Of a stretch of 64,000 nt of DNA, positions 49,156 to 63,963 are shown piece after piece (within the stretch, counting starts at the first letter, position 1; each line of letters starts with the position of its first letter). Made by a program: the position numbers and the translations under genes. The stretch lies in IMG/VR virus record IMGVR_UViG_3300032046_000009. One strand, 5' to 3'. Under the pieces are notes generated by a model. The model was given only the letters and a program-made list of their open reading frames with translations. It made no database searches and had not been told where the DNA came from. This DNA is from a virus (taxonomy: Duplodnaviria > Heunggongvirae > Uroviricota > Caudoviricetes).

Positions 49156-49271
49156 TTTGCGATGGGTGTGGCAAAGATGTTCAAGTATTATACAAGAAGC
49201 CAAAGACGACACGATGGCTCTGTGAGAATTGTAAACATATAAAAGAAAAAACTAAGGTGCAGTTCACTTGA
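49152..49271 (+). CDS. 39-aa Zn-ribbon protein (not in track)
   Basis: TTG in JM; CDGCG..CENC; ends TKVQFT. Confidence 0.5.
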   Translation: MICDGCGKDVQVLYKKPKTTRWLCENCKHIKEKTKVQFT

Positions 49272-49537
49272 AAATCCCTATAATTATGGTTCCCATAGAC
49301 AAAATAATTCCAAGAGGAAATCCCAAAGTTGAGAAGGTATTACTTGAAGATATTCGAGTTAATGGATTAAAAGAGCCTTTGCGAGTAATGTTTCGTGAAG
49401 ATGGAAAAGCCATAATTCTGAATGGTCATCATCGGTACTTTTGTTGTAAAGAATTGAACTATAAAGAAATACCATGTTTTGATGGGAAAATTTATTACCC
49501 ACCTAATTCCTATCTTGATTATCCCAAATCAATTTGA
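49268..49537 (+). CDS. ParB/Srx-like N-terminal domain protein
   Basis: TTG in JM; LKEPLRV..ILNGHHRYFCC; paralog of 63682..63963. Confidence 0.7.
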   Translation: MKIPIIMVPIDKIIPRGNPKVEKVLLEDIRVNGLKEPLRVMFREDGKAIILNGHHRYFCCKELNYKEIPCFDGKIYYPPNSYLDYPKSI

Positions 49538-50175
49538 TTGGGGTCTGGACCATCTTCTAAATTCCAATGTGTAGTTTCATATTCGTGAAGCCAATGTTTG
49601 TATTCTTCCTCTCGTTTACGCATCTTCTTTATGTCGGCTATTTTTTGATGGTCAAATACAATATTGATTATTGGAGCATGTACTATATCTAATTCACCAT
49701 CTTTATCAAATATTCTCCTATGGTCTGTTGACCAATGTATTGTTTCTGTCTTTTTAACAAGTCCATATCTTAGAAGTGCCGTATGAGGTTTATAAAATTT
49801 CCAATAAATACGATATACTTTCTCATTTGATATTTCAAGCGTTTTACGAACATTATCGCCCCACATGATTATTATCTCATCTGAGTCGAGAAAAATTGCC
49901 CAATCTCCATCACCACAAAATTTTAATGATTCTGTCCTAGCTTCCCATTGATGCATAGGTCGTAATCTTGTGTAACAAACACGAGATTTTGAATGTTCAG
50001 AAAAATTCAAAATTATTTCCTGTGTTTCATCAGTTGAATGGTCTAAACCACTCGTACCAATCCATCGCCCGTCAAGACAAAATATCTCATCAACTTTGCC
50101 GTCTATAGATTTTAAGGCTTCTAGAACTACATCAGCCGAGTTGTAAACTGGCATTAAGCAAATAAGTTTGTTCAT
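49519..50175 (-). CDS. family 2 glycosyltransferase
   Basis: MPVYNSADVVLEALKSI..DSDE; paralog of 63122..63691; 19-bp convergent overlap. Confidence 0.75.
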   Translation of the reverse strand: MNKLICLMPVYNSADVVLEALKSIDGKVDEIFCLDGRWIGTSGLDHSTDETQEIILNFSEHSKSRVCYTRLRPMHQWEARTESLKFCGDGDWAIFLDSDEIIIMWGDNVRKTLEISNEKVYRIYWKFYKPHTALLRYGLVKKTETIHWSTDHRRIFDKDGELDIVHAPIINIVFDHQKIADIKKMRKREEEYKHWLHEYETTHWNLEDGPDPNQIDLG

Positions 50176-50429
50176 ATTCTATTTCTACTCACATATCTGT
50201 TCAAGTCTTCTATTCCGAACATATGATTAACCTCTCTTTCCTCAAGTTCAAACCATAATTCATCTTTAGTAAACTTCCATTGTTTCTCTCTTTCAAATAT
50301 GGCTTTATAGATAACGCCTTTCTCTTCCGTATCAGCGATAACTCTAAGACTCTGTAACTGAACTTTAGCAGTTTCTATAGTTACTATTTGAAATTCCCAG
50401 ACTAACCATACTTTCTTTTTAGGTATCAT
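50172..50429 (-). CDS. hypothetical protein
   Basis: track 50172..50450; ATG chosen; ATGA overlap downstream. Confidence 0.6.
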   Translation of the reverse strand: MIPKKKVWLVWEFQIVTIETAKVQLQSLRVIADTEEKGVIYKAIFEREKQWKFTKDELWFELEEREVNHMFGIEDLNRYVSRNRI

Positions 50430-50814
50430 AGAATAACCGTTTCTCTTCAACGCCTAATTCTTCTAAGGCTTTCTTTACTTCATCAAAGAATCCCATATTT
50501 ATAAGTGCCCGTGGACATGCTTTTCGAACTTTTGCCCAATGATAAGCGAAATCTCTGCCGTCAATATTAAGCATAAATACCATTACGGCACATGCGATAG
50601 TATTTGACCGAGATATTCCGCCGCAACATCTAACTACAACTTTTTGCCCGACAGAAAGAAGGTTAGCTATGATTTGTATTTTGGTTTTTATAGCTTCAAT
50701 ATCGTTGCCAGTTCCATCCTTTATATCTCTAACATCTACGATTATCCATCCTTCGGGAGTCATAGATTCTAAGATGTTACAAGTTGCCAAATGGTCTTTC
50801 CAGATTTCAAACAT
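50419..50814 (-). CDS. dual-specificity / Cys-based protein phosphatase
   Basis: Cx5R signature VVVRCCGGISRSNT; TATA 50855-50862. Confidence 0.75.
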   Translation of the reverse strand: MFEIWKDHLATCNILESMTPEGWIIVDVRDIKDGTGNDIEAIKTKIQIIANLLSVGQKVVVRCCGGISRSNTIACAVMVFMLNIDGRDFAYHWAKVRKACPRALINMGFFDEVKKALEELGVEEKRLFYDT

Positions 50815-50900
50815 TACTGTTTCACCTATCTACACACTAATACGCATTCATTCCTTATAAACTTTGTGGTAGAACGCCCATGCTCAAAATTTCGAACATA

Positions 50901-51068
50901 TCAATCGTCCTCATGCAATTTTGGCATTAGATAATACTTCTTTGAAAGACAGTTAATACAATAGTATGCACAGGTATGCAAATTCTCACAATATGCCGCT
51001 TCGATTTCTGTTAATTCTCTTTTACAACTTTTACATTTTTTACCAGACGACTTAACCCATTGTTTCAT
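50901..51068 (-). CDS. 55-aa Zn-ribbon protein (not in track)
   Basis: CKSC..CINC; hand translation. Confidence 0.5.
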   Translation of the reverse strand: MKQWVKSSGKKCKSCKRELTEIEAAYCENLHTCAYYCINCLSKKYYLMPKLHEDD

Positions 51069-61813: not shown

Positions 61814-62677
61814 TTATTCTTGATGAGAACTGCCTTTTGGTGCGGGGAAGGACATTTTTCGTTCTTCCTCTTCCATTTTCGCCTTACGAAGTTCTGCACA
61901 TTTCTTGCTGTCGGTTGTCTTGTCGTAAACAAACTGGAAAAAGTTTTCTTCTAGGAAACGGTAGATACTATCAATCGGTATGAAAAATCCCATCCAAGTG
62001 ATTATGTCCACACCGAAACCAAGTTGCACACTTGCTACTCTAGCGGTATTTCCTATATATTCATAGGTATCTTCCAGAAAAACTGGACCGCCTGAGTTGC
62101 CAAAGATGATGTTGGCAGAAGTCATCCAGTATTCTTTTGCTTCTATTTGGTCGCCTTTGCTTGTCAAACTTCCAAAAGTGAAAAACGGATTATGTGCCAT
62201 CGAACAACCACAGCTTATCATTGATGTGCCGAGTTTTATATCATCTCCTTTTTCTCTTGGAAAGAGTTTTGCAACATGTTCTACTTTATCAGAGCATTTT
62301 ACCTTGAGTAAAGCGACATCAAGTGGTTTATCATAAGCAACTATTTCGGCATCCAAAGTTGTGCCACCTATGCATCGACTCAACTTTTCGTATTTGAAAA
62401 GTTCCACACGCACAAGTTCGTTAGCTTCAACCGTGATGTCTTTCTTGGAAATGCTAGACCACTTTTTGACGAACTTGATTGCTTCTTCAACAACGTGGTG
62501 GCAAGTTACAACATATGATTCATACTCTTTGTCTTCGTCTGGTTTGTCGATAGTCTCTGGTGTTACAGCCGAGTAGATAACTACGCCAGTTCCAGCGGCA
62601 TGTTCCGTCAAAACTCTAACAATAGGATAAAGGATATTCCGATGAATTTCTTTTAGTTTTTCAGCAGATATTCCCAT
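61814..62677 (-). CDS. trypsin-like (S1) serine protease
   Basis: His TCHHVV, Asp DVALLKV, Ser GNSGGPVF; ATG 5 nt after AGGTGA. Confidence 0.8.
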   Translation of the reverse strand: MGISAEKLKEIHRNILYPIVRVLTEHAAGTGVVIYSAVTPETIDKPDEDKEYESYVVTCHHVVEEAIKFVKKWSSISKKDITVEANELVRVELFKYEKLSRCIGGTTLDAEIVAYDKPLDVALLKVKCSDKVEHVAKLFPREKGDDIKLGTSMISCGCSMAHNPFFTFGSLTSKGDQIEAKEYWMTSANIIFGNSGGPVFLEDTYEYIGNTARVASVQLGFGVDIITWMGFFIPIDSIYRFLEENFFQFVYDKTTDSKKCAELRKAKMEEEERKMSFPAPKGSSHQE

Positions 62678-62734
62678 CATAGTCACCTATAAAGTAATAG
62701 ACAACCCAAGTATATAAGTGTTATGGTTTATGGT

Positions 62735-63079
62735 TTAACCAAAACTTTGTCCTATATGGTCAATTACACCAGACCAACCACCATCGCCATCTTCATCCTC
62801 TTCTTCTTCTTCCTCATCTGGACCCATTAATTCATTCCAAATATTGTTTTCGCTTTTCTCTCCATCTTCGGGCGGTGGGGGCAAGACATCCTCTTCCATT
62901 CTTTCTAAAATATGAAAAGCGCAAAGATAAATTTGAACCATCTCATACATTCCTCTACGTTCACGTTTCACAAGAACAGGATACAAACTTTCAGTTGATT
63001 TACCACAAACATCACACTTCGGACCAATAGCTTTCTCTTTTGCTTCTTCTTCCTCTGGGCAATAATCGTCTTCTGACAT
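62735..63079 (-). CDS. acidic Zn-ribbon protein
   Basis: track 62735..63091; CDVCG..C; poly-E tail. Confidence 0.6.
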   Translation of the reverse strand: MSEDDYCPEEEEAKEKAIGPKCDVCGKSTESLYPVLVKRERRGMYEMVQIYLCAFHILERMEEDVLPPPPEDGEKSENNIWNELMGPDEEEEEEDEDGDGGWSGVIDHIGQSFG

Positions 63080-63121
63080 AATCAACACCAAGAAAGATAA
63101 AGTAGAAGTAGTATTTAAAGG

Positions 63122-63691
63122 TTATGGATGTGGTCTCTGAGCAGTTTCCGAAGCGTGTTTCTCGCGTTTTCGTTTGTTGAAATCATGACGTACATTAATG
63201 TTAATCATGTAAAGGGCTTGCAATATCTTGCCTTTAGAATCACAAACTCTACAAGTGAAATATTTCATACATTTTTCCTTTCTAAAGAGGCGGCAAACTG
63301 GAAACATATGACTATCCATATACCAAAAGAATCCTTTCTCTATGGTGTTCTCAAGAATAGAACGAACATTATCATCCCATCGTATAACTACTTCGTCAGA
63401 ATCTATAGCAAAAACCCAATCTCCTTCTGCCACATTTTCTATAGAAGCATCTCTGCATTTTTGTTCACTCATTGGGGACGATAACATAATATAGTCTGCT
63501 TTCGTCTTAGAGGTTTTAGAGAAATTTTCTATTATTTGTTTCGTATCGTCAGAAGAATGCAAAGTTGACGGGTTAATCAGCCAACAAGTATCGTAACAAT
63601 GAATCTCATCAACTTTTCCATCCACACTTCTTAGCGTTTCGAGTAGCATATCTCCGCAATTGTAAACTGGTATCACACAAATTATTCGCAT
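63122..63691 (-). CDS. family 2 glycosyltransferase
   Basis: IPVYNCGDMLLETLRSV..DSDE; paralog of 49519..50175. Confidence 0.75.
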   Translation of the reverse strand: MRIICVIPVYNCGDMLLETLRSVDGKVDEIHCYDTCWLINPSTLHSSDDTKQIIENFSKTSKTKADYIMLSSPMSEQKCRDASIENVAEGDWVFAIDSDEVVIRWDDNVRSILENTIEKGFFWYMDSHMFPVCRLFRKEKCMKYFTCRVCDSKGKILQALYMININVRHDFNKRKREKHASETAQRPHP

Positions 63692-63963
63692 TTATATCTA
63701 TCTCTTGGAAATGGGGTTGCATGTGGTCCGTAGTTCCGAACTATGCATTCCACTTCCTTCCAGCCTAACATTTTGCAAGCTCTCAATCTGTGAACACCTT
63801 CTACAACTTCATAGTAATCTTTTACTCGATGAATTTCTATCGGATTTTTCAAACCATTTTTTGAGATGTCTTCAGCTAATTCTTCTACACGCCGTTTAGC
63901 CGCTTTGAATCTACTATAATACAAGTCAAAGTCATCACGAATTTCATCAATTTTGACTAACAT
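63682..63963 (-). CDS. ParB/Srx-like N-terminal domain protein
   Basis: GLKNPIEI..VVEGVHRLRAC; paralog of 49268..49537. Confidence 0.7.
   Translation of the reverse strand: MLVKIDEIRDDFDLYYSRFKAAKRRVEELAEDISKNGLKNPIEIHRVKDYYEVVEGVHRLRACKMLGWKEVECIVRNYGPHATPFPRDRYKCE

What the first reader, a model, noticed from the sequence alone, without database searches (positions are those of the whole stretch)
49268..63963. Two paralogous ParB-like + GT2 glycosyltransferase pairs in different geometries, plus a third GT2
Pair 1 is 49268..49537 (+) with 49519..50175 (-). These converge and overlap by 19 bp. Pair 2 is 63682..63963 with 63122..63691, which are co-directional and overlap by 10 bp. Both partners are clear paralogs (MPVYNSADVVLEALKSIDGKVDEI vs IPVYNCGDMLLETLRSVDGKVDEI; LNGHHRYFCC vs VEGVHRLRAC). 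The ParB-like proteins are only about 90 aa, so they have the nuclease/Srx-like N-domain with no room for an HTH. A third GT2 lies at 58745..59680. Repeated linkage suggests a functional couple. DNA-base or protein glycosylation, possibly for anti-restriction, is an inference only.
Basis: partly seen in the sequence, partly recalled or inferred. Interest (0 to 1): 0.6.

Follow-up and report, generated by a model that had tools for sequence, protein, structure and literature searches.

The report
Viral ParB-mini plus glycosyltransferase module
A large uncultured virus, probably of archaea, always encodes a tiny ParB/sulfiredoxin-like protein directly in front of a minimal sugar-transferring enzyme, which points to an undescribed helper-plus-enzyme glycosylation unit; the second such "pair" in the window is a strain-specific juxtaposition, and what gets glycosylated is unknown.

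Summary
All five ORFs exist at the stated coordinates, with the stated overlaps and family assignments. GT2a and GT2b are paralogs (38% identity, E=2e-37), and so are ParB1 and ParB2 (41% over 46 aa, E=4e-9).

The two pairs are not equivalent. Pair 2 (ParB2 then GT2b, co-directional, 10-bp overlap) recurs in 10 distinct viral lineages, almost always with a 1-10 bp stop/start overlap and with changing neighbours. It is the end of a larger module that runs off the window's right edge: a ~390-aa unknown protein, a 600-660-aa GT2/Anp1 protein, and in this strain a nucleotide-sugar island. Module proteins share a unique C-terminal Q-x-P-H-P tail.

Pair 1 is not conserved. ParB1 has no homologs outside its own strain. 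It is the last gene of a small inverted Zn-ribbon cassette that the 83%-identical relative lacks. GT2a's recurrent partner is a dual-specificity phosphatase.

ParB2 models as a single-domain Srx-like fold without the ParB CTPase box, HTH or dimerisation domain. GT2a models as GT-A, closest to the protein/peptide glycosyltransferases SunS, ThuS and GmaR.

No TET/JBP dioxygenase, thymidylate-synthase-like gene or methyltransferase was found in the window. DNA glycosylation is therefore possible but unsupported, and I slightly favour a cytoplasmic protein-glycosylation module.

The parts
63682..63963 (-). ParB2: a 93-aa single-domain ParB/Srx-fold protein. It has GVHR in place of the ParB GERR box and a disordered Pro-rich tail (GPHATPFPR...).
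   Evidence: Pfam PF02195 at 1.3e-9. AF2 pLDDT 87.6 with the tail at pLDDT ~50. Best PDB matches are Srx 6ky4 and ParB/Noc N-domains. Orthologs lie upstream of GT2b in 10 lineages.
63122..63691 (-). GT2b: a 189-aa minimal soluble GT-A glycosyltransferase with a DSDE (DxD) motif and the C-terminal tail ...ASETAQRPHP. It overlaps the end of ParB2 by 10 bp.
   Evidence: PF00535 at 28.5 bits, above the 23.3 cut-off. Alignment A1 shows the invariant D..DxDE. The tail is conserved in all orthologs. No TM segment.
63964..64000 (-). The last 10 codons plus stop (...QASPRPPKSK*) of the ~392-aa module protein that precedes ParB2. The rest of this gene, and the nucleotide-sugar island, lie beyond the window edge.
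   Evidence: Sequence read. Full gene seen in L030/L031 8818-9996. Family alignment A3.
49519..50175 (-). GT2a: a 218-aa paralog of GT2b (38% identity). It lacks the PHP tail and instead has a conserved C-terminal helix ...YKxWLHEYETTHWN.
   Evidence: AF2 model pLDDT 92.5. Top PDB folds are SunS/ThuS. The best sequence-profile hit is GmaR.
49268..49537 (+). ParB1: an 89-aa ParB/Srx-like mini-protein with a GHHR motif. It has a TTG start at an AGGTGCAGTTCACTTGA junction, is strain-specific, and converges on GT2a with a 19-bp overlap.
   Evidence: Its only homolog cluster is its own, P0036. Junction motif.
48973..49272 (+). Two Zn-ribbon mini-genes (60 aa at 48973-49155 and 39 aa at about 49153-49272). 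Together with ParB1 they form a + strand cassette joined by TTGA stop/start overlaps.
   Evidence: The cassette is absent at the orthologous site in L019.
50419..50814 (-). A CX5R dual-specificity-phosphatase-like protein (131 aa), the recurrent upstream neighbour of GT2a orthologs.
   Evidence: Pfam DSPc at 3.4e-7, below the gathering cut-off. tblastn finds it next to GT2a in L018-L020, L022, L023/24 and L004/5.
50172..50450 (-). p92: a 92-aa unknown protein between the phosphatase and GT2a. It is present only in some relatives.
58745..59680 (-). GT2c: a 311-aa generic GT2 unrelated to GT2a/b beyond the fold. It is conserved in relatives but has no ParB neighbour.
   Evidence: PF00535 at 29 bits.. 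Orthologs in L025, L029, L030-33 and L035.

Best explanation
Pair 2 is the window-internal end of a conserved, soluble (cytoplasmic) multi-glycosyltransferase module. The module belongs to a clade of large (~135-150 kb) uncultured viruses, probably archaeal.

ParB2 is a single-domain ParB/sulfiredoxin-fold protein. It keeps the G-x-H-R phosphate-binding loop but lacks the ParB CTPase box, the HTH and the dimerisation domain. It is translated in tandem with the minimal GT-A enzyme GT2b. I infer that it acts as GT2b's dedicated accessory subunit: a nucleotide-binding or adaptor partner that supplies substrate recognition or activation to a GT with no acceptor-binding domain of its own.

GT2b, the ~390-aa protein and the 600-660-aa GT2/Anp1 proteins share a C-terminal Q-x-P-H-P tail. 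Some ParB-minis carry it too. I read this tail as a common docking or targeting peptide. In this strain an adjacent nucleotide-sugar island supplies donors: UDP-GlcNAc 2-epimerase, UDP-sugar dehydrogenase, amidotransferase, acetyltransferase and deacetylase.

The acceptor is not established. I favour a protein (virion or other viral protein) over DNA.

Pair 1 is not a couple. GT2a is an older paralog that normally works without ParB and sits next to a dual-specificity phosphatase. ParB1 is a recent extra copy carried in an inverted Zn-ribbon mini-cassette.

Shown: the anatomy, the conservation, the folds and the shared tail. Inferred: the physical or functional partnership, the role of the tail and the acceptor.
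For: Conserved adjacency. ParB-mini directly precedes a PHP-tailed GT2b in the window/L030-32, L029/L035, L028, L033/34, L036/37, L038, L039, L040, L041 and L044. The overlap is 1-10 bp in nearly all. Upstream and downstream genes differ between these loci. L038 has three tandem ParB-minis before the GT. L039 and L041 have two GT2b-like genes around or after the ParB.

Tail. Of 1622 ORFs of at least 60 aa in all loci, 31 have PHP in the last 9 residues. Every one of them is a module protein. A fifth family, 244 aa in L043, also carries the tail.

Sugar island. PIG-L, SDR, hexapeptide transferase, GT2/Anp1, Asn-synthase-like, Epimerase_2 and UDPG_MGDP_dh lie directly upstream in L030/31.

Folds. 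The GT2a model (pLDDT 92.5) aligns over its whole length with the SunS/ThuS S-glycosyltransferases (E=4e-10, TMq 0.59-0.65), but only over the N-terminal ~134 residues with TarP/TarS/SpsA. The profile's best PDB sequence hit is GmaR; that GmaR is a flagellin O-GlcNAc transferase is my own knowledge. The best match for ParB2 is sulfiredoxin.

Solubility. None of the window's GT2a/b/c, the ~390-aa protein or the 607/658-aa proteins has a TM-like segment; GT646 has one borderline hydrophobic stretch just above threshold.

Pair 1. ParB1 has no homolog beyond its own cluster. There is no ParB-like ORF near GT2a orthologs in L019, L022, L004/5, L023/24, L025 or L001-3/26/27. The cassette is absent in L019. 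The phosphatase is conserved next to GT2a.
Against: No interaction has been tested.

Most loci come from one viral clade, where general synteny inflates the apparent conservation of adjacency.

Fold similarity to SunS/ThuS is at 16-20% identity, and GT-A acceptor specificity is not predictable at that distance.

ParB/Srx-fold proteins on mobile elements are usually linked to DNA. ParB-like proteins co-occur with GTs in phage DNA-hypermodification clusters and activate T-dioxygenases (PMC13229309). Relatives encode a divergent archaeal-type thymidylate-synthase-like protein near these genes.

The chance that ParB1 lands next to a GT2 paralog at random is only a few percent by my rough estimate, so pair 1 may not be wholly accidental.

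One GT2b-like locus, the 2-kb contig L043, shows no ParB.
Confidence: 0.5

Rival explanations
1. DNA hypermodification. GT2b, with the other tailed GTs, glycosylates a hydroxymethyl-pyrimidine or another base in viral DNA. ParB2 recruits or activates the enzyme on double-stranded DNA, by analogy with ParB-dependent phage T-dioxygenases. The modification protects the genome from host nucleases.
For: ParB-like proteins are the second most frequent neighbours of phage 5mYOX enzymes, after GTs. One has been shown to activate its dioxygenase on dsDNA (PMC13229309). GT-A-fold GT2 enzymes do glycosylate 5hmC in phage DNA, sometimes in series and alongside epimerases (bioRxiv 10.1101/2023.12.21.572611). 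The module lies among replication and nucleotide genes in relatives: MCM, Endo VII, RNA ligase and a thymidylate-synthase-like protein. That thymidylate-synthase-like protein scores far below the curated cut-off (80 vs 174 bits), so it could be a hydroxymethylase. ParB1 and ParB2 are basic (pI 9.0 and 8.4).
Against: A Pfam census of 124 window ORFs, plus targeted scans, found no TET_JBP, thymidylate-synthase-like or DNA methyltransferase domain. tblastn finds no ThyS-like gene in the window. The ParB-minis lack both the HTH and the C-terminal domain, and the latter is required in the 5mYOX-associated ParB. The validated DNA GT-A enzymes have TarP as their best PDB fold and never SunS, whereas here SunS/ThuS rank first. 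The motif is DSDE rather than the reported DDD, and no EDY/F motif was identified. GT2a and GT2b are acidic to neutral (pI 5.7 and 6.6). A donor island making acetylated or amidated uronic sugars, together with 3-5 GT families, is more typical of protein or surface glycans; this last point is my own knowledge.
Confidence: 0.25
2. No functional coupling. The ParB-minis are independent small proteins, for example nuclease-like, anti-defence or DNA-packaging helpers. They stay next to GT2b only because gene order is conserved within one young viral clade.
For: All loci belong to one clade, in which the neighbouring genes (390-aa protein, trypsin-like protease, GT2c) are also often syntenic. Single-domain ~100-aa ParB-fold proteins are common in phages and archaea without any noted GT link; the term glycosyltransferase does not occur at all in the survey PMC12704722. 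GT2a orthologs function without any ParB.
Against: The adjacency survives when both flanks change (L033, L038, L039, L041, L044), and at only 38-47% protein identity. The stop/start overlaps are consistent. Some ParB-minis carry the same terminal PHP tail as the GTs (L039). All 17+ ParB-mini ORFs found lie within 1 kb of a GT2a/b-type gene.
Confidence: 0.15
3. Host-surface remodelling. The GTs modify host envelope or S-layer glycans, or lipid-linked precursors, to block superinfection, in the manner of GtrB-like seroconversion.
For: There is a weak PHROG hit to GtrB-like O-antigen conversion proteins (E~3e-3). The donor island resembles surface-glycan pathways.
Against: None of GT2a, GT2b, GT2c or the ~390-aa, 607-aa and 658-aa module proteins has a TM-like segment. 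No flippase, polymerase or oligosaccharyltransferase gene was seen in the loci. The GtrB structure is a much weaker fold match than SunS/ThuS.
Confidence: 0.1

Closest known systems
ParB-dependent phage thymine dioxygenases (5mYOX + ParB activator; PMC13229309)
   Same: A ParB-fold protein without an HTH is encoded next to a macromolecule-modifying enzyme and is needed as its partner. GTs are the commonest neighbours in those clusters.
   Different: No dioxygenase is present here. The partner enzyme is a GT-A. The ParB is ~90 aa (NBD core only, no C-terminal dimerisation domain), and it lacks the conserved CTP-binding residues that those ParBs retain.
Phage GT-A (JGT/TarP-like) DNA glycosyltransferases acting on 5hmC/5hmU (bioRxiv 10.1101/2023.12.21.572611)
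   Same: Virus-encoded soluble GT2/GT-A enzymes, sometimes several in a row together with sugar-modifying enzymes, with ParB-like genes in the neighbourhood.
   Different: Those enzymes are ~270 aa with R...DDD...EDY/F motifs, have TarP as their best PDB fold, and are linked to 5mYOX or ThyS. GT2a/b are 189-218 aa with DSDE, have SunS/ThuS as their best fold, and no such enzyme was found in the window.
SunS/ThuS glycocin S-glycosyltransferases and GmaR flagellin O-GlcNAc transferase
   Same: These are the closest solved structures and sequences to GT2a/b, over the whole catalytic GT-A domain. They are cytoplasmic enzymes that glycosylate proteins or peptides directly.
   Different: SunS, ThuS and GmaR carry large C-terminal helical/TPR acceptor-binding domains that are absent here. 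Identity is only 16-20%. No glycocin precursor or transporter genes are present.
Sulfiredoxin and other single-domain ParB-CTPase-fold proteins (PMC12704722)
   Same: Same size and fold (TM 0.67-0.70 to Arabidopsis Srx). The G-x-H-R loop is retained. They fit the class of ~100-aa stand-alone ParB-fold proteins noted in phages and archaea.
   Different: The Srx catalytic Cys (GCHR) is replaced by V, H, N or W. The association with a glycosyltransferase and the Pro-rich tail are not described for that class.
Autonomous glycosylation machineries of large DNA viruses (chloroviruses, mimiviruses; my own knowledge, not tested here)
   Same: Clusters of soluble viral GTs plus nucleotide-sugar biosynthesis genes, variable between strains, that build glycans on viral proteins in the cytoplasm.
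   Different: Those are eukaryotic viruses with no ParB-like component and no shared C-terminal tail.

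Membership tests
ParB/Srx fold (PF02195 ParB_N) | Significant profile match and a beta-alpha core fold | tested here: met
   ParB2 scores 38.5 bits, above the gathering cut-off. The AF2 model matches Srx, ParB and Noc N-domains at E=1e-6, TM ~0.7. ParB1 falls below the Pfam cut-off but scores 1.7e-9 against PHROG ParB families and 6.9e-22 against the family HMM.
Canonical ParB CTPase DNA clamp | GERRxRA box with the catalytic Glu, plus the N-terminal QPR-type phosphate box | tested here: not met
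   ParB2 has EGVHRLRA and ParB1 has NGHHRYF. There is no Glu-Arg pair and no QPR box (alignments).
Canonical ParB CTPase DNA clamp | Central HTH DNA-binding domain and C-terminal dimerisation domain | tested here: not met
   The proteins are 89-93 aa. The model is a single domain followed by a disordered tail.
5mYOX-associated ParB activator | A cognate TET/JBP-type dioxygenase encoded nearby | tested here: not met
   No PF12851 hit in 124 window ORFs or in the neighbours of any locus. The rest of the ~151-kb genome was not seen.
5mYOX-associated ParB activator | NBD plus C-terminal domain, both required for function | tested here: not met
   Only the NBD core is present.
Sulfiredoxin | Catalytic Cys in the GCHR motif | tested here: not met
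   That position is V, H, N or W across the family. Only G, H and R are invariant.
GT2 / GT-A glycosyltransferase | PF00535 match above cut-off, DxD metal and nucleotide-sugar motif, GT-A fold | tested here: met
   32.7, 28.5 and 29.0 bits against a 23.3 cut-off. DSDE is invariant in 23 sequences. The model has pLDDT 92.5 with 134 PDB GT-A hits at E<=1e-3.
JGT/TarP-like phage DNA GT-A | R...DDD...EDY/F active-site motifs | tested here: inconclusive
   DSDE stands in place of DDD, and no EDY/F motif was recognised in A1. No reference sequences were available for a direct alignment.
JGT/TarP-like phage DNA GT-A | Best structural neighbours are TarP (PDB) and T. cruzi JGT (AFDB) | tested here: not met
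   SunS/ThuS rank 1-6. TarP ranks 22 and aligns over only 134 columns. The AFDB library was unavailable, so the JGT comparison was not testable.
JGT/TarP-like phage DNA GT-A | Genomic link to a 5hmC/5hmU-generating enzyme (5mYOX or ThyS-type hydroxymethylase) | tested here: not met
   None in the window. A ThyS-like gene is present 5-10 kb away in some relatives.
SunS/ThuS-type glycocin glycosyltransferase | GT-A catalytic domain similarity | tested here: met
   Foldseek E=4e-10 to 4e-8, TMq 0.59-0.65, 204-222 aligned columns.
SunS/ThuS-type glycocin glycosyltransferase | C-terminal helical acceptor-binding domains, with precursor peptide and transporter genes nearby | tested here: not met
   The proteins end right after the GT-A domain. 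No such neighbours are present.
GtrB-like seroconversion GT | C-terminal transmembrane helices and lipid-carrier use | tested here: not met
   No TM-like segments. The PHROG 841 hit is only at E~3e-3.

The most novel reading that the evidence does not exclude
The ~90-aa ParB/Srx-fold protein is an obligatory partner of a minimal GT-A enzyme, which would make this the first ParB-dependent glycosyltransferase. It delivers or activates the enzyme on its polymer substrate (viral DNA, or a viral protein). The Q-x-P-H-P C-terminal tail is a docking peptide that assembles up to five different GT families into one virus-encoded glycosylation complex.
Probability: 0.2. Interest if true: 0.75.

Novelty: new variant of a known kind. 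Interest (0 to 1): 0.5.

Why it matters
ParB-fold proteins were recently shown to be repurposed as activators of DNA-modifying dioxygenases in phages. Stand-alone ~100-aa ParB-fold proteins are known to be common in phages and archaea, but no role has been assigned to them. A stand-alone ParB/Srx domain that is strictly coupled to a minimal glycosyltransferase would give one such orphan class a testable function, and would extend the idea of ParB as an enzyme partner from dioxygenases to glycosyltransferases. The shared C-terminal Q-x-P-H-P tail on several unrelated GT families gives a simple experimental handle on how a viral glycosylation machinery is assembled or targeted. If the acceptor proves to be DNA, this would be a new hypermodification route in what are probably archaeal viruses. 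If it proves to be protein, it would be an autonomous glycosylation system in a prokaryotic virus.

Tried and rejected
- Stop-codon recoding as the reason for the many short ORFs. Rejected: no stop reassignment restores long ORFs, so the genome really does encode many mini-proteins.
- Close relatives among cultured or deposited phages (INPHARED, by DNA and protein), IMG/VR and GTDB genomes. None found. All relatives came from metagenome assemblies.
- ParB1 homologs elsewhere. Only its own cluster turned up.
- A hidden ParB-like ORF near GT2a orthologs or near distant IMG/VR GT2s. None found with a family HMM.
- p92 as a ParB-equivalent adaptor for GT2a. Rejected: it is absent in L022/L023 and L001/L025, and the ParB HMM does not hit it.
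- The ~390-aa protein as a divergent 2OG dioxygenase. There is no HxD...H pattern among the invariant residues, and no Pfam, PHROG, NCBIfam, PADLOC or PDB sequence hit. Its GWSRFxMECAxxxIPCxGS stretch resembles the GT-B/GT4 nucleotide-sugar motif, but that is only my reading.
- Membership in a defence system. PADLOC gave only weak ParB-domain-level hits.
- Foldseek against AFDB, to test JGT similarity. The library was not available.
- Reference sequences of validated DNA GT-A enzymes. They are not in the held supplement.
- tRNA genes as a clue to the host. There are none in the window.

Full report
OBSERVATION

- All three GTs exceed the Pfam gathering score for Glycos_transf_2, and ParB2 exceeds it for ParB_N.
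- ParB1 is sub-threshold in Pfam (16.4 bits against 26.3). It is nevertheless clearly ParB-like by PHROGs (1.7e-9), by a family HMM (6.9e-22) and by BLASTP to ParB2 (41% over 46 aa, E=4e-9).
- GT2a and GT2b are true paralogs (38% over 190 aa, E=2e-37).
- GT2c shares only the fold.
- There are no other ParB-like or GT2a/b-like genes in the window.

WHAT THE ELEMENT IS

The window is a block of about 160 mostly minus-strand, mostly tiny genes with a standard genetic code. Many of the products are Cys-rich Zn-ribbon proteins.

Recognisable genes in the window are a KaiC/RadA-like ATPase, a CobS-like AAA_5 protein, an SPFH protein, an RNA ligase, a SprT-like protein, a trypsin-like protease and a dual-specificity phosphatase.

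Identical or near-identical sequence occurs on metagenome contigs of 86-152 kb. Relatives carry MCM, LonB, Endo VII and an archaeal-type thymidylate-synthase-like gene. Nothing similar exists in INPHARED, IMG/VR or GTDB genomes.

I infer a large uncultured virus, probably of an anaerobic archaeon. The host assignment is inference only.

PAIR 2 IS A CONSERVED COUPLE

ParB2-anchored and GT2b-anchored look-ups gave ten distinct lineages in which a ParB-mini directly precedes a GT2b-type gene:

- window/L030-32
- L029/L035
- L028
- L033/34
- L036/37
- L038
- L039
- L040
- L041
- L044

In nearly all of them the two genes have a 1-10 bp stop/start overlap. ParB identity falls to 47% and GT2b identity to about 38-42%.

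The flanks change between lineages:
- In L033 a GDSL+GT2 protein sits between the 390-aa gene and the ParB.
- L038 has three tandem ParB-minis.
- L039 has GT2-ParB-GT2.
- L041 has a ParB followed by two GT2b-like genes.
- L044 is followed by a 242-aa protein of a further family (the one I tentatively read as GT8-like in L043); its own tail is ...LPRP rather than PHP.

The only GT2b-like gene without a visible ParB is on a 2-kb contig (L043).

THE MODULE IS LARGER THAN THE PAIR AND LEAVES THE WINDOW

Directly upstream of ParB2, across the window's right edge, lies a conserved ~390-aa protein (alignment A3). It has no detectable family. Its last 10 codons occupy window 63969-64000.

Further upstream in this strain there is a nucleotide-sugar island: PIG-L deacetylase, SDR, hexapeptide transferase, a 646-aa GT2/Anp1 protein, an Asn-synthase-like amidotransferase, UDP-GlcNAc 2-epimerase, a UDP-sugar dehydrogenase and LonB. 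The island differs between relatives, whereas the set of 390-aa protein, large GT2 protein, ParB and GT2b persists.

A SHARED TAIL

The following proteins all end in Q-[R/G/A/H]-P-H-P-COOH:
- GT2b orthologs (...AS[ET]xAQRPHP)
- the 390-aa family (...PDKKQARPHP)
- the 607-658-aa GT2/Anp1 proteins
- a 244-aa putative GT in L043
- some ParB-minis (L039: ...RAGPHP)

Other ParB-minis have GPxxxPxPR near the C-terminus.

Among 1622 ORFs of at least 60 aa in all fetched loci, the 31 with PHP in the last nine residues are exclusively these module proteins. In the ParB2 model the tail is disordered.

This is independent evidence that these proteins form one functional unit. I read the tail as a docking, targeting or turnover signal. 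That is inference.

PAIR 1 IS NOT A CONSERVED COUPLE

ParB1 has only its own 90%-identity cluster among 5.8 billion clusters. Six GT2a-bearing lineages at 52-83% identity have no ParB-like ORF anywhere in the fetched flanks.

In L019, the 83% GT2a ortholog, GT2a is followed after about 40 bp by the ortholog of window 48622-48870. The window instead carries about 700 bp there, holding a + strand cassette. The cassette consists of a 60-aa Zn ribbon, a 39-aa Zn ribbon and ParB1. The three genes are joined by the motif AGGTGCAGTTCACTTGA, which combines an SD sequence with a TTG start overlapping the TGA stop.

GT2a's recurrent neighbour is the CX5R phosphatase (window 50419-50814), seen in L018-L020, L022, L023/24 and L004/5. 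GT2a also lacks the PHP tail.

ParB1 is closest to the extra ParB-minis of L038 (47% and 43% identity). Such extra copies therefore exist elsewhere, and there they sit in front of the ParB2-type/GT2b pair.

Every ParB-mini found is still within 1 kb of a GT2a/b-type gene. A random landing next to a GT2 paralog has only a few percent probability by my rough estimate. Some selective or recombinational bias therefore cannot be excluded.

WHAT THE PROTEINS LOOK LIKE

- ParB2 (pLDDT 87.6) is a single domain. Its best PDB match is Arabidopsis sulfiredoxin (E=1.4e-6, TMq 0.67, TMt 0.70), followed by ParB, Noc, KorB, SerK and SbnI N-domains.
- The family keeps G56, H58 and R59 invariant, forming a G-x-H-R loop. 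The ParB GERR Glu-Arg pair and the Srx Cys are both replaced, and there is no QPR box, HTH or C-terminal domain. It is therefore neither a canonical CTPase clamp, nor an Srx, nor the two-domain 5mYOX activator.
- GT2a (pLDDT 92.5) is a minimal GT-A with an invariant DSDE. Its best structural matches over the whole domain are the S-glycosyltransferases SunS and ThuS (E=4e-10 to 4e-8). TarS, TarP, SpsA and RmlT match only the nucleotide-binding half.
- The best profile-to-PDB sequence hit is GmaR, at 6.7e-5.
- The window GTs, the ~390-aa protein and the 607/658-aa proteins lack TM-like segments; GT646 has one borderline hydrophobic stretch (1.70 against a 1.6 threshold). GT2a and GT2b have pI 5.7 and 6.6, and ParB1 and ParB2 have pI 9.0 and 8.4.
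- The GT2a/b family is small: 23 clusters at E<=1e-30 and 83 at E<=1e-10 among 1.84 billion representatives. None of the best 150 listed matches is a ParB fusion.

MECHANISM

Shown: a conserved, translationally linked ParB/Srx-mini plus minimal GT-A pair, embedded in a set of soluble GT-like proteins marked by a common tail, next to donor-sugar biosynthesis genes.

Inferred: ParB-mini is the GT's accessory subunit. The GT has no acceptor-binding domain of its own, and the ParB-mini keeps a phosphate-binding loop. The tail is inferred to assemble or target the enzymes.

The acceptor is open. Three points favour protein: the SunS/ThuS/GmaR-like fold, the complex donor pathway with several GT families, and the absence of any base-hydroxymethylating enzyme in 64 kb. 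Three points favour DNA: the general DNA association of ParB-fold proteins, the published link between ParB, 5mYOX and GTs in phage hypermodification clusters (PMC13229309; bioRxiv 10.1101/2023.12.21.572611; PMC8256090), and a divergent thymidylate-synthase-like gene in relatives.

My estimates are roughly 0.5 for the module reading with a non-DNA (protein) acceptor, 0.25 for DNA, 0.15 for no functional coupling and 0.1 for host-surface glycans.

COMPARISON AND NOVELTY

The nearest described system is the ParB-activated phage T-dioxygenase. This case shares the logic of an HTH-less ParB fold partnered with a modifying enzyme. It fails that system's defining tests, because there is no dioxygenase and no C-terminal domain.

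It also fails the motif, fold and context tests for the JGT/TarP-like DNA GT-A enzymes.

The survey of ParB-CTPase-fold proteins notes ~100-aa single-domain forms in phages and archaea but never mentions glycosyltransferases.

I therefore rate it a new variant of a known kind. Interest is moderate (0.5): the anatomy is solid, conserved and testable, and the tail was unexpected, but the function is unproven and half of the original "two pairs" argument dissolves.

Noticed in passing
window, 18 sites, e.g. 48960, 49139, 49255 (+); 55672, 55496, 45000, 42984, 41977, 41565, 38591, 38134, 37701, 34192, 25944, 21296, 20896, 15063, 10437 (-): There is a recurrent gene-junction motif, AGGTNNANTTYNNTTGA, typically GAAAAGGTGCAGTTCACTTGA. 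Upstream ORFs of unrelated sequence all end in ...EKVQF[T/D], and the next gene starts at the TTG that overlaps the TGA stop. The downstream genes are mostly Cys-rich Zn-ribbon mini-proteins. It looks like a portable SD-plus-restart junction, or a cassette boundary that could drive gene shuffling. ParB1 starts at one of these junctions.
   Followed up: partly
window 63122-63151 (GT2b C-terminus) and 63969-64000; loci L028-L044: The C-terminal tail Q-x-P-H-P-COOH is shared by four or five unrelated GT-like protein families and by some ParB-minis, and by nothing else among 1622 ORFs. In the window's own strain the ~392-aa protein's tail is altered to QASPRPPKSK, whereas the 90%-identical L028 ortholog ends QARPHP.
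   Followed up: partly
window 50419-50814 (-) with 49519-50175 (-): A small CX5R dual-specificity-phosphatase-like gene is the conserved upstream neighbour of GT2a in at least five lineages. This suggests a phosphatase-plus-GT couple that is distinct from the ParB-plus-GT couple.
   Followed up: partly
L030/L031 1-10000, just beyond the window's right end: A strain-variable nucleotide-sugar island (PIG-L, SDR, hexapeptide transferase, 646-aa GT2/Anp1, Asn-synthase-like, UDP-GlcNAc 2-epimerase, UDP-sugar dehydrogenase) lies together with a LonB-type protease.
   Followed up: partly
L030 8818-9996 and orthologs in L028, L029/L035, L033, L036, L040: A conserved ~390-aa protein has no detectable family. 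Its GWSRFxMECAxxxIPCxGS stretch resembles the GT-B/GT4 nucleotide-sugar-binding motif by my reading. A paralog is fused to the C-terminus of the 658-aa protein in L029/L035.
   Followed up: partly
L038 2216-3636: Three tandem ParB-mini paralogs (100, 86 and 94 aa) precede one GT2b. ParB1 of the window is most similar to the first two.
   Followed up: yes
L001 269-976, L025 2950-3597, L033 20172-: Relatives encode a divergent archaeal-type thymidylate-synthase-like protein (thy_syn_methano, 80 bits against a cut-off of 174). It keeps the PCx nucleophile and the uracil-type Asn, so it could be a true ThyA or a dUMP hydroxymethylase. It is absent from the window.
   Followed up: partly
window 59658-59966 (-) with 58745-59680 (-): GT2c is preceded by a conserved ~85-aa ORF that overlaps its start by 23 bp. 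The same arrangement is seen in L030, L033 and L035. The ORF is not ParB-like and contains a hydrophobic stretch.
   Followed up: no
window, whole: Hints of an archaeal host: a TFIIB-type Zn ribbon, DUF7569 and DUF7351 in window ORFs, MCM and LonB in relatives, and peat or sediment sample sources. The window has no tRNA genes and no structural genes recognisable by Pfam or PHROGs, apart from one weak terminase-like hit (6e-6).
   Followed up: partly
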